Assembly: GCF_000738915.1 (NCBI RefSeq)
Contig: NW_026515636.1
Coordinates: 1-64,000 of the forward strand
Direction of reading: 5' to 3'
Origin: Nematocida ausubeli
Lineage: Eukaryota
Length of the DNA: 64,000 nt
Both the position numbers and the translations under genes were made by a program. Below the pieces are notes generated by a model. The model was not told the DNA's origin and did no database searches. It saw nothing but the letters and a program-made list of their open reading frames with translations. Position 1 is the stretch's first letter. Every line of letters begins with the position of its first letter. Of the stretch, positions 59,134 through 59,487 are shown in pieces.

Positions 59134-59487
59134 ATGACAAAAGAAACTATAAGGTCGATACTTCTCTATGAATTCAAATGCGGAAGAACTATGCAGGAGG
59201 CCCTGCAGAACATTCAATCCAGCTACCCAAGCAGTACAATTTCATTAGCAACAGTGAAAAGGTGGTTCTTGAAGTTTTCATCTGGAGATCTTTCCTTGTC
59301 GGATAAAACCAGGACAGGAAGGCCTTCCAAAGTCAGTGCATTCAAGCTGGAAGAGTTGATTAATTTCAATCCAGAGGCTACATGCGATATACTTGCAAAG
59401 CAAATGGGAGCCAGCAAATCAACTATTCAGAAGAAGCTTCGCAAGTTAGGCAAACAGAAGAAGAATTCTAGTTGGAAGGCGCCTTAG
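59134..59487 (+). CDS. Mariner (Mos1/Hsmar1-SETMAR type) transposase N-terminal paired-like DNA-binding domain only
   Basis: IRSILLYEFKCG, TVKRWFLKFSSGDLSLSD..RTGRP and LAKQMGASKSTIQKKLRKLGK. It stops at W(KAP)*, where WVPHEL and the DD34D domain would start. Confidence 0.88.
   Translation: MTKETIRSILLYEFKCGRTMQEALQNIQSSYPSSTISLATVKRWFLKFSSGDLSLSDKTRTGRPSKVSAFKLEELINFNPEATCDILAKQMGASKSTIQKKLRKLGKQKKNSSWKAP

What the first reader, a model, noticed from the sequence alone, without database searches (positions are those of the whole stretch)
59134..59487. Intact, catalytic-less mariner DNA-binding domain inside the lectin array: possible domesticated transcription factor
Seen: a clean 117 aa ORF with both HTH subdomains and the GRP linker. 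It ends exactly at the WVPHEL-position Trp. I see no DD34D remnant downstream and no convincing terminal inverted repeats, and an AATAAA follows about 80 bp after the stop. Known: SETMAR and CENP-B-like proteins are domesticated Tc1/mariner-superfamily DNA-binding domains, and mariners move horizontally between animals and parasites. Inference: a domesticated sequence-specific DNA binder, possibly host-derived. It might regulate the array or, more speculatively, bind the TTCGGGTTATA motif.
Basis: partly seen in the sequence, partly recalled or inferred. Interest (0 to 1): 0.75.

Follow-up and report, generated by a model that had tools for sequence, protein, structure and literature searches.

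The report
Domesticated mariner DNA-binding gene in Nematocida
This 117-residue gene of a nematode-infecting microsporidian is the DNA-binding half of a mariner transposase without the cutting half; related species keep it as a single gene at the same chromosomal place, so it likely now serves the parasite as a DNA-binding regulator.

Summary
ORF 59134-59487 (+) encodes 117 aa. It matches Pfam HTH_48 (E 4e-14), the SETMAR DNA-binding domain (E 1.4e-19) and Mos1 residues 8-119. The model shows two three-helix bundles joined by an R-x-G-R-P linker.

No catalytic remnant, terminal inverted repeat or second copy is present in the window.
- Intact orthologues of 115-127 aa exist in N. parisii, Nematocida sp. 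ERTm5/AWRm79, N. major and N. minor, plus two unnamed assemblies.
- They form one clade (support 100/99) whose branching follows the species tree.
- N. minor and N. major carry one such gene each, in the same gene order as the window.
- In N. cider the slot is an apparently empty 332-bp gap.
- The core has one 1-residue indel in nine sequences, while the tails after Trp114 all differ.
- In unconstrained simulations, 0 of 1500 runs kept all seven lineages open.

This is therefore a domesticated, DNA-binding-domain-only mariner gene dating to the Parisii-group ancestor. DNA binding is inferred. Targets, expression, donor and formal dN/dS remain untested. It is a new member of a known kind and appears unreported for microsporidia.

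The parts
59134..59487 (+). Complete gene: 117-aa mariner-derived DNA-binding protein (13.2 kDa, pI 10.1), stop codon included
   Evidence: ORF. HTH_48 at 52.9 bits. SETMAR and Mos1 alignments. Mass and pI. Orthologues.
59140..59280 (+). HTH1, residues 3-49: three helices (3-15, 20-30, 38-49). Predicted recognition helix 38-49 carries the invariant R43, W44 and F45.
   Evidence: Pfam HTH_48 covers residues 3-52. Helices from the AlphaFold2 model, pLDDT 85. R43 aligns with Mos1 R48, a base-contact residue. 16 of 47 positions are invariant in six lineages.
59281..59337 (+). Extended linker, residues 50-68, with the motif R60-T-G-R63-P64 (AT-hook-like; predicted minor-groove contacts)
   Evidence: R60 and R63 align with SETMAR R392 and R395, the two AT-hook arginines. 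9 of 19 linker positions are invariant, the highest share of any region.
59338..59445 (+). HTH2, residues 69-104: helices 69-78, 84-91 and 95-104. Predicted recognition helix 95-104 carries the invariant S96, T97, Q99 and K100.
   Evidence: Model. S96 and K100 align with SETMAR S428 and R432. K95 and S96 align with Mos1 Q100 and Q101.
59446..59487 (+). Basic C-terminal stretch ending at W114 (the Trp of the transposase WVPHEL motif), then an unconserved 3-residue tail and the stop
   Evidence: W114 aligns with the Trp of Mos1 and of full-length mariners. The tails after the Trp differ in every lineage.
58990..59133 (.). 144-bp upstream spacer between the stop of the preceding gene and the ATG (presumed promoter; untested)
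   Evidence: ORF list. Two strain indels lie here, at 59050 and 59116, in run X9.
59488..60220 (.). 733-bp AT-rich (33% GC) spacer with no detectable transposase remnant. AATAAA at 59516-59521 and 59566-59571.
   Evidence: tblastn. Pfam on three frames. No Rfam or tRNA hit. GC content and AATAAA positions.
57823..58989 (+). Upstream flanking gene (388 aa, proline/alanine-rich tail). By order, strand and size it is the counterpart of NEMIN01_0539 and NEMAJ01_1977.
60221..61375 (-). Downstream convergent flanking gene (384 aa). By order, strand and size it is the counterpart of NEMIN01_0537.
   Evidence: Beta-trefoil/ricin-like features are a lead only.

Best explanation
The ORF at 59134-59487 encodes the complete two-HTH DNA-binding domain of a mariner transposase and nothing else. 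The five named Parisii-group Nematocida species all keep an intact orthologue, single-copy and syntenic where this could be read, and the protein likely acts in the parasite as a sequence-specific DNA-binding protein; that last step is predicted, not shown.

Shown here:
- the domain identity and the predicted bipartite fold;
- the absence of a catalytic domain and of inverted repeats;
- orthologues of the same length, forming one clade that follows the species tree;
- conserved gene order in N. minor and N. major;
- an apparently empty slot in N. cider;
- retention of the open frame far beyond the neutral expectation.

Inferred history: a metazoan-type mariner entered the ancestor of the Parisii group and inserted between two convergent genes. 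It lost everything after the Trp of WVPHEL, and the remaining 13-kDa basic protein was co-opted.

Predicted mechanism, by analogy with the SETMAR and Mos1 complexes: helices 38-49 and 95-104 sit in adjacent major grooves, and R60 and R63 of the linker sit in the minor groove of an AT-rich centre. This would recognise a site of roughly 15-20 bp. With no effector domain, the protein would act by occupancy (repression, insulation or competition) or through a partner. A role as a clade-specific transcription regulator is my preferred reading, and I put it at about even odds among the DNA-binding roles.
For: Domain identity and fold:
- HTH_48 at 52.9 bits against a cutoff of 24.1. All six further orthologues scanned also pass it.
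- SETMAR DNA-binding domain E 1.4e-19 and Mos1 E 3e-11, both gapless.
- AlphaFold2 model at pLDDT 85 with two three-helix bundles plus a linker. All 8 Foldseek PDB hits at E <= 0.001 are SETMAR or Mos1.

Not a transposon: no catalytic remnant and no terminal inverted repeats.

Orthologues:
- Four proteins of 115-122 aa.
- A profile search found 8 proteins at E <= 1e-8 among 1069 candidates. Six are Nematocida-type proteins of 115-124 aa, including N. parisii and N. major.
- Cluster names add Nematocida sp. ERTm5 and AWRm79.

Single origin and vertical descent:
- One clade at SH-aLRT 98 among 136 mariner-domain rows.
- One clade at 100/99 among 17 rows, splitting (minor, two unnamed) from (major, ausubeli, (parisii, ERTm5)). 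This agrees with Wadi 2023, where N. minor diverges first within the Parisii group (passages).

Synteny:
- The order kinase / GPN GTPase / RPS15A / chitin synthase / TSR1 / HDAC3 / SMC3 / array of small secreted proteins / two genes / HTH gene / convergent gene is the same in the window and, mirrored, in N. minor scaffold 136.
- N. major has SMC3, the array, two genes and the HTH gene on one scaffold, in the same order and on the same strands.

Copy number: HTH_48 occurs twice in 11 annotated proteome sheets, once in N. minor and once in N. major. The names 'Transposase_1' and 'PF01359' occur 0 times.

Empty site: in N. cider the corresponding convergent gene pair is 332 bp apart with no gene between.

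Constraint:
- Nine of nine sequences have open frames, with a single 1-residue gap in residues 3-114. 40 positions are invariant in six lineages. The tails after W114 all differ.
- N. parisii and ERTm5 differ at 1 core residue, yet their tails differ in length and sequence.
- Unconstrained substitution kept a single lineage open in 3.4% of runs at 63% identity and 1.6% at 52%.
- On the tree, scaled to the observed identities, all seven tips stayed open in 0 of 1500 runs at each of four scales.
- Identity to N. parisii is 63%, close to the 68.3% average reported for protein-based alignments of the two genomes (Cuomo 2012 passage).
- The four ORF variants listed among strains are three synonymous and one K89R.

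DNA-contact residues kept: R43 (= Mos1 R48), R60 and R63 (= SETMAR AT-hook R392 and R395), S96 (= S428), K100 (= R432). The protein has pI 10.1.
Against: - No DNA binding, target site, localisation or phenotype has been measured.
- The residue equivalent to SETMAR R371 and Mos1 K44 (the HTH1 base contact) is Ala39 here and Ser in N. parisii and N. major. It is Arg only in the N. minor branch. R371A lowers SETMAR affinity about 12-fold. HTH1 recognition has therefore changed or weakened in this species.
- Formal dN/dS was not computed, because no coding DNA of the other species could be fetched. The strain variant list was truncated by the tool.
- Copy number in the window's own genome could not be searched.
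- Orthology of the flanking genes rests on order, strand, size and SignalP flags in published tables, not on alignments.
- Absence from the Displodere group rests on annotation tables. The N. homosporus scaffold ends before the slot.
- The protein has no effector domain, so 'regulator' is a guess among DNA-binding roles.
Confidence: 0.8

Rival explanations
1. Transposition guard. The DNA-binding-domain-only protein would be kept because it occupies mariner ends and so blocks any incoming or resident mariner transposase, as a dominant-negative repressor rather than a gene regulator.
For: The protein is exactly the end-binding module of a transposase. No mariner catalytic domain is named in the 11 annotated proteomes searched, as a successful guard would predict. 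Transposon exchange between microsporidia and metazoans is documented (Parisot 2014 abstract and passages).
Against: There is no known live target in these genomes, so long purifying selection from the Parisii-group ancestor onwards is hard to explain. The HTH1 base-contact residue differs between lineages (A, S or R at position 39), which argues against one fixed transposon end as the target. No end-like inverted repeats are present in the window.
Confidence: 0.07
2. Host-directed effector. The small basic protein would be released into the nematode intestinal cell, enter the host nucleus and bind host DNA, possibly host mariner ends.
For: The gene lies beside an array of small secreted beta-trefoil proteins. 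It is confined to the Parisii group, all of whose species are described as intestine-specific specialists (Wadi 2023 passage). The nearest named outsiders in the profile search are nematode mariner fragments from Trichuris suis and Heligmosomoides polygyrus.
Against: The orthologues NEMIN01_0538 and NEMAJ01_1978 carry no SignalP flag in the published tables. The N-terminus is helix 1 of the HTH fold. The tree gives no supported nematode sister.
Confidence: 0.05
3. Conserved protein with a role other than sequence-specific DNA binding, for example a protein-protein adaptor, an RNA binder or a non-specific chromatin protein built on the HTH scaffold.
For: The Ala at the position of the key HTH1 base contact. 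The absence of any second domain.
Against: The invariant residues include the AT-hook arginines and the HTH2 recognition-helix residues that contact bases in SETMAR. The linker is the most conserved region, with 9 of 19 positions invariant.
Confidence: 0.06
4. Decaying transposon relic or annotation artefact: a chance-open fragment of a dead mariner with no function.
For: Short HTH_48-only gene models of 110-200 aa are common among the 150 best hits of the database search. Those that carry a name are broken mariner copies in animal genomes, for example the 126-aa Trichuris suis fragment.
Against: All the points on orthology, synteny, monophyly and open-frame retention listed above. GC3 of the ORF is 47.5%, like neighbouring genes, while the downstream spacer is 33% GC.
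Confidence: 0.02

Closest known systems
[quoted passage not shown]
   Same: It is the best sequence and fold match: E 1.4e-19, 38% identity over 104 aligned columns. It has the same bipartite HTH1, AT-hook linker and HTH2 layout. The AT-hook arginines and the HTH2 residues equivalent to S428 and R432 are conserved. It too is a mariner transposase kept by its host after the transposon died.
   Different: SETMAR keeps the catalytic domain and is fused to a SET methyltransferase. It is primate-specific and still binds thousands of relic transposon ends. The Nematocida protein is the DNA-binding domain alone (117 aa), has Ala at the R371 position, and no relic ends are known.
Drosophila CG4570 and the 'DNA-binding-module pathway' of Tc1/mariner domestication (Guseva et al. 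2026, PMC13548663; abstract and sections 5 and 7 read)
   Same: Only the N-terminal HTH module of a Tc1/mariner transposase is co-opted. It is truncated relative to the transposase, monophyletic apart from transposases, microsyntenic and low in copy number.
   Different: This is an independent event in animals. CG4570 is 225 aa, and dN/dS (0.124) and expression were measured for it. Neither was measured here.
Mos1 mariner transposase, N-terminal domain (PDB 3hos, 4u7b, 5hoo)
   Same: Residues 3-114 align without gaps to Mos1 8-119, up to the Trp that begins WVPHEL. R43 matches the Mos1 base contact R48.
   Different: Mos1 continues into the DD34D catalytic domain and is flanked by inverted repeats. 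Both are absent here.
Truncated mariner gene models in animal genomes, for example Trichuris suis M514_02375 (126 aa)
   Same: Similar length, HTH_48 only, 39-41% identity.
   Different: The Trichuris fragment reads on into the transposase sequence after the Trp (VLHELSEKQ...), as a broken copy would. It lies outside the Nematocida clade.

Membership tests
Mariner transposase DNA-binding domain (Pfam HTH_48 plus second HTH) | HTH_48 match above the curated cutoff | tested here: met
   52.9 bits against 24.1, residues 3-52. The orthologues score 41.9-54.6 bits.
Mariner transposase DNA-binding domain (Pfam HTH_48 plus second HTH) | Bipartite fold: two three-helix bundles joined by an extended linker with AT-hook-like arginines | tested here: met
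   Model at pLDDT 85. All top 8 Foldseek hits are SETMAR or Mos1. R60 and R63 align with SETMAR R392 and R395.
Active mariner transposon / transposase | DD34D catalytic domain (Pfam Transposase_1) after the WVPHEL motif | tested here: not met
   The ORF stops 3 codons after W114. There are no tblastn or Pfam traces downstream.
Active mariner transposon / transposase | Terminal inverted repeats flanking the element | tested here: not met
   Only 17-19-nt pairs at 74-78% complementarity within 58900-60300.
Domesticated transposase-derived gene (criteria listed in Guseva et al. 2026) | Significant homology to a transposon protein | tested here: met
Domesticated transposase-derived gene (criteria listed in Guseva et al. 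2026) | Low copy number | tested here: inconclusive
   One copy in the 64-kb window. One HTH_48 gene each in the N. minor and N. major proteomes. The window's own whole genome is not held.
Domesticated transposase-derived gene (criteria listed in Guseva et al. 2026) | Intact coding capacity in all orthologues | tested here: met
   9 of 9 sequences are open, with one 1-residue gap in the core. 0 of 1500 neutral simulations kept 7 of 7 tips open.
Domesticated transposase-derived gene (criteria listed in Guseva et al. 2026) | dN/dS significantly below 1 | not tested
   Coding DNA of the other species was not obtainable. The metagenome scan found none. Only four strain variants were listed, three synonymous and one K89R.
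Domesticated transposase-derived gene (criteria listed in Guseva et al. 2026) | Orthologues in distant species with preserved microsynteny | tested here: met
   N. minor and N. major gene tables compared with the window. Flank orthology is judged by order, strand, size and Pfam anchors.
Domesticated transposase-derived gene (criteria listed in Guseva et al. 2026) | Monophyletic clade separate from transposases | tested here: met
   SH-aLRT 98 in 136 rows. 100/99 in 17 rows.
Domesticated transposase-derived gene (criteria listed in Guseva et al. 2026) | Evidence of expression and of a biological function | tested here: inconclusive
   No RNA run on record holds the stretch. One run of unrecorded kind has a 210-nt contig on 59297-59500. 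Function cannot be tested with these tools.
SETMAR-type fusion | Transposase module fused to another functional domain | tested here: not met
   The 117 aa are wholly covered by the DNA-binding domain.
CENP-B / pogo-derived DNA binders | Pogo-type N-terminal domains rather than the mariner HTH_48 | tested here: not met
   None of the 12 Pfam families listed at E <= 0.1 bears a CENP-B or Tc5 name. The best is HTH_48. That those are the pogo-type family names is recalled.

The most novel reading that the evidence does not exclude
A mariner that jumped from an animal, perhaps the nematode host, into the ancestor of the intestine-specialist Parisii group was cut down to its DNA-binding domain. It became a clade-defining transcription factor that controls parasite infection genes such as the adjacent secreted beta-trefoil array. 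This would be the first transposon-derived regulator known in the heavily reduced microsporidia.
Probability: 0.12. Interest if true: 0.8.

Novelty: new member of a known kind. Interest (0 to 1): 0.52.

Why it matters
Microsporidia have some of the most reduced eukaryotic genomes, and little is known about how they regulate genes. Nematocida is the model microsporidian of C. elegans.

A gene gained from a transposon and then kept intact in a whole group of species shows that these shrinking genomes still recruit new DNA-binding proteins from mobile elements. It also gives a small, soluble, clade-specific protein whose binding sites can be mapped directly.

The case is unusually clean as an example of the DNA-binding-domain-only route of mariner domestication. 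It has a visible slot between convergent genes, an apparently empty site in an outgroup species, and orthologues that follow the species tree.

I found no paper describing it. I ran three full-text searches, read passages of Parisot 2014, and searched the main text of Wadi 2023 (0 occurrences of 'transpos' or 'mariner'). In the published tables the orthologues are 'hypothetical protein'.

Tried and rejected
- **Own genome:** not held, so genome-wide copy number in this species is open.
- **Longer relatives:** 477 candidates, none at E <= 0.001. This is weak evidence only.
- **RNA evidence:** no RNA holder was listed.
  - Run X13, whose kind is not on record, has contigs that coincide with ORFs. 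All 8 listed pieces lie on ORFs of 200 aa or more, and the three wholly intergenic bins are empty. It also has a 210-nt contig identical to 59297-59500.
  - I read this as probably RNA, but it is a lead, not evidence. Parts without cover (58008-58674 and 60009-62009) say nothing.
- **Published expression tables:** Wan 2022, supplementary file 1, part 1 read. They list genes by locus tag. I did not try to work out the window's own tag, so the gene's expression values were not looked up.
- **Metagenome scan for relatives' DNA:** 41 pattern matches, none confirmed.
- **Rfam and tRNA scans of 58900-60400:** nothing found.
- **Earlier findings of this scan:** nothing by place, sequence or words.
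- **Complex prediction for a homodimer:** the queue was full throughout and the job never ran. Dimerisation is untested.
- **TTCGGGTTATA as the target:** the motif is real, with 27 matches at up to 1 mismatch against 0.57 expected. It is a stand-alone 11-12-mer without flank conservation, and 9 of the 27 lie inside ORFs, with no fixed position relative to genes. Nothing links it to this protein.
- **N. homosporus synteny:** the scaffold ends after six array genes, so there is no verdict.
- **Donor lineage:** no supported sister group.
- **Spacer as decayed catalytic half:** the 733-bp downstream spacer has about the length of a lost catalytic half. This is only a numerical coincidence, since the spacers in N. 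minor (285 bp) and N. major (1062 bp) differ.
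Full report
**What is in the sequence**

The + strand ORF runs from ATG 59134 to TAG 59485-59487 and encodes 117 residues. It exceeds the curated threshold of Pfam HTH_48, 'HTH domain in Mos1 transposase', at 52.9 bits against 24.1 for residues 3-52. The weaker HTH families it touches all lie on residues about 70-110, which is the second HTH.

Against solved structures it aligns without gaps to the human SETMAR DNA-binding domain (7s03, E 1.4e-19, residues 2-107). 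It also aligns to Mos1 transposase (3hos, residues 3-114 against 8-119, E 3e-11).

An AlphaFold2 model built on eight sequences has pLDDT 85. It shows helices 3-15, 20-30 and 38-49, an extended segment at 50-68, and helices 69-78, 84-91 and 95-104. All eight Foldseek PDB matches at E <= 0.001 are the SETMAR domain or Mos1. The protein is 13.2 kDa with pI 10.1.

Trp114, which aligns with the Trp of WVPHEL, is followed by three more codons. There are two AATAAA, 29 and 79 nt after the stop. At 1.6 per kb on this strand they mean little.

**What is not there**

I ran tblastn of the window with 12 mariner-like proteins of 325-360 aa taken from the database search. Five of them carry a catalytic domain after a WVPHEL-type motif, as read by eye. 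Only their first ~116 residues matched, at 59131-59475. No hit fell in 59488-60220, and the best hit anywhere else had E 0.096.

The three + frames of 59476-60221, read with X at stops, hit no transposase family at E up to 10. Inverted repeats around the gene are 17-19 nt at 74-78% complementarity, which is noise. Rfam and tRNA scans were blank. The gene occurs once in the window.

**Relatives**

The word-indexed search found four proteins of 115-122 aa: the window's own, N. minor NEMIN01_0538 (52% identity) and two from unnamed assemblies. A member of the window's cluster is named N. ausubeli NEAUS03_1816 and differs at 3 residues.

A profile of these recovered 8 proteins at E <= 1e-8 among 1069 candidates. 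The six best are Nematocida-type. They now include N. parisii (120 aa, 63%) and N. major NEMAJ01_1978 (124 aa, 54%). The other two are nematode mariner fragments from Trichuris suis and Heligmosomoides polygyrus.

The N. parisii cluster also holds a 127-aa form from Nematocida sp. ERTm5 and AWRm79. That ERTm5 is N. ironsii is recalled, not from a call.

The exhaustive search of 1.84 billion representatives gave 2031 hits at E <= 0.001. Apart from N. minor (53%), the single-stretch hits among the 150 listed have at most 43% identity. Many are 110-200-aa fragments. The few hits that carry a name are arthropod or nematode proteins.

**One origin, vertical descent**

In a tree of 136 mariner DNA-binding domains, the five Nematocida-type rows then in hand form one clade (SH-aLRT 98) on a long stem. 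I had dropped 18 of the 154 stored proteins because their best match did not span query residues 8-104.

A careful tree of 17 rows that I chose gives the clade 100/99. The rows were eight Nematocida-type sequences, five full-length mariners and four near hits. Within the clade, (N. minor, (two unnamed)) separates from (N. major, N. ausubeli, (N. parisii, ERTm5)).

Wadi et al. [quoted passage not shown] So the gene tree follows the species tree, and all five named members have the gene.

**Same place in the genome**

The annotation tables of Wadi 2023 (supplementary file 15; parts 1, 180, 213 and 258 and six searches read) give gene order. On N. minor scaffold 136 the order is:
- kinase (-), GPN GTPase (-), RPS15A (+), chitin synthase (+), TSR1 (-), HDAC3 (+), SMC3 (-);
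- eight small proteins (+), seven of them SignalP-positive;
- two genes (-);
- the HTH_48 gene (-);
- three genes (+).

The window shows the mirror image gene for gene:
- kinase 30571-31542 (+), GPN 32334-33590 (+), Ribosomal_S8 34449-34829 (-), chitin synthase 35761-38043 (-), TSR1 38246-40087 (+), HDAC 40534-41631 (-), SMC 41649-44447 (+);
- seven small ORFs (-);
- two ORFs (+);
- the HTH ORF (+);
- two ORFs (-).

N. major scaffold 93 has SMC3 (+), small SignalP-positive genes (-), two genes (+) and then NEMAJ01_1978 (+).

HTH_48 occurs only twice in the 11 proteome sheets, once in each of these two species. The names of the mariner catalytic family occur nowhere. That is a text search, so it is only as good as the published annotation.

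In N. cider (Displodere group) the same anchors and array are followed by two (-) genes and then (+) genes. The convergent gap is only 332 bp and holds no gene. In the window that gap is 1231 bp and in N. minor 1003 bp, each containing the HTH gene.

I read this as an empty site, with the caveat that flank orthology was judged from order, strand and size only. The N. homosporus scaffold ends too early to tell.

**Constraint**
- All nine sequences are open from the same start to just past Trp114.
- Residues 3-114 contain one single-residue gap, in N. major.
- Forty positions are invariant across six lineages.
- The tails after the Trp are all different: KAP, KCASIS, KCSISQCCVNETK, HVESPDTQHAQ, RHFSN, T and MQITHKTA.
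- N. parisii and ERTm5 differ at one core residue, but in both length and sequence of the tail.

In simulations with unconstrained substitutions and no indels, one lineage stayed open in 3.4% of 3000 runs at 63% identity and in 1.6% at 52%. On the tree, scaled so that simulated identities matched the observed ones, all seven tips stayed open in 0 of 1500 runs at each of four scales. The mean was 0.36-1.06 open tips.

The 63% identity to N. parisii is close to the 68.3% average reported for protein-based alignments of the two genomes (Cuomo 2012 passage). The gene thus evolves like an ordinary gene of these parasites.

Among strains, the four ORF variants the tool listed are K47K, S54S, L55L and K89R. 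The tool cut the list, so this is only an indication. ORF GC3 is 47.5%, like neighbouring genes, and the downstream spacer is 33% GC. A codon-based dN/dS could not be done, because no coding DNA of the relatives could be fetched.

**How it likely works (inferred)**

In the SETMAR-DNA structure, bases are contacted by R371 (HTH1) and by R417, H427, S428 and R432 (HTH2). The AT-hook arginines R392 and R395 contact bases in the minor groove. Mos1 uses K44 and R48, and Q100 and Q101 (passages of PMC9062482).

By the gapless alignments these positions map as follows:
- SETMAR R371 and Mos1 K44 map to residue 39.
- Mos1 R48 maps to residue 43.
- SETMAR R392 and R395 map to residues 60 and 63.
- SETMAR R417 maps to residue 85.
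- SETMAR H427 and S428, and Mos1 Q100 and Q101, map to residues 95 and 96.
- SETMAR R432 maps to residue 100.

R43, R60, R63, S96 and K100 are invariant in the Nematocida proteins, and residue 95 is K or R. The linker is the most conserved region (9 of 19 positions).

Against this, residue 39 is Ala here, Ser in N. parisii and N. major, and Arg only in the N. minor branch. R371A lowers SETMAR affinity about 12-fold. Residue 85 also varies.

I therefore expect a bipartite binder of an AT-centred site of about 15-20 bp, whose HTH1 half-site has shifted between lineages. With no other domain it would act by occupancy or through a partner.

**Rivals**
- A transposition guard is possible, but it has no known target and a drifting specificity residue.
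- A host-directed effector fits the neighbourhood and the clade's intestinal specialism. However, the N. minor and N. major orthologues carry no SignalP flag in the published tables.
- A dead relic is contradicted by everything above.

**Context and side observations**
- The neighbours have no Pfam hits. One array member, modelled with its ten window paralogues, shows a signal-like helix plus a beta-rich domain (overall pLDDT 68.8, C-terminal blocks 80-94). That domain matches beta-trefoil lectins, trefoil protease inhibitors and other trefoil domains at E about 1e-4. Language-model look-alikes point the same way, as leads only (scores 0.87-0.90). 'Beta-trefoil array' is thus supported, and 'lectin' is plausible.
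- The array next to SMC3 is also present in N. homosporus and N. cider.
- The TTCGGGTTATA motif is strongly enriched, but nothing connects it to this protein.
- Parisot et al. 2014 list one 'Mariner/Tc1' family each for N. parisii and Nematocida sp. in their Table 1 (passages). That entry may be this locus, but I could not check it.

**Verdict**

This is a real, intact, transposon-derived gene that meets the homology, coding-capacity, orthology and synteny, and monophyly criteria for domestication listed by Guseva et al. 2026. It also lacks terminal inverted repeats. Genome-wide copy number in this species, expression and function, and a formal dN/dS remain open.

It is a new member of a known kind: DNA-binding-domain-only co-option of a mariner. 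I found no published report of it for microsporidia (searches, and text searches of the Nematocida genome papers).

Noticed in passing
whole window; for example 45018-45028 (-), 45106-45116 (+), 47090-47100 (+), 51788-51798 (-): The 11-mer TTCGGGTTATA (usually followed by T) occurs 27 times at up to 1 mismatch, against 0.57 expected. 15 copies are exact. It stands alone with no flank conservation, sometimes next to partial TCGGGTT copies. 9 of the 27 lie inside ORFs, and there is no fixed position or strand relative to genes.
   Followed up: partly
window 45134-55882 (- strand ORFs), 56743-58989 (+), 60221-63561 (-): An array of small, very divergent paralogues (14-25% identity) lies next to SMC3. 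One models as a signal helix plus a beta-trefoil. By gene tables the same array follows SMC3 in N. minor, N. major, N. homosporus and N. cider, so it appears to predate the split of the two Nematocida groups.
   Followed up: partly
window 59825-59976: Run X13 (kind not on record, contigs otherwise gene-shaped) has a 152-nt contig in the 'empty' spacer downstream of the HTH gene. There is no ORF of 40 aa or more and no Rfam hit there. It may be an unannotated transcript or a UTR.
   Followed up: no
window 58600-58950: The proline/alanine-rich tail of the 388-aa upstream protein is length-polymorphic among strains. Variants include a 6-nt and an 18-nt deletion, two alternative 12-nt insertions and further small gaps.
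   Followed up: no
N. cider NECID01_1466 (scaffold 66, 22865-23218, +), from the Wadi 2023 table: A 117-aa hypothetical protein with no Pfam hit sits two genes away from the empty slot, on the opposite strand to the expected one. Its sequence was not examined.
   Followed up: no
P0159 (N. parisii) against P0164 (Nematocida sp. ERTm5/AWRm79): The two orthologues differ at one residue up to Trp-Lys-Cys, then carry tails of different length and sequence (ASIS against SISQCCVNETK). This looks like an indel just past the domain boundary.
   Followed up: no
Parisot et al. 2014 (PMC4202319), Table 1: The table counts one 'Mariner/Tc1' family each in N. parisii and Nematocida sp., but these were not placed in their tree. 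The entry may be this domesticated gene counted as a transposon.
   Followed up: no
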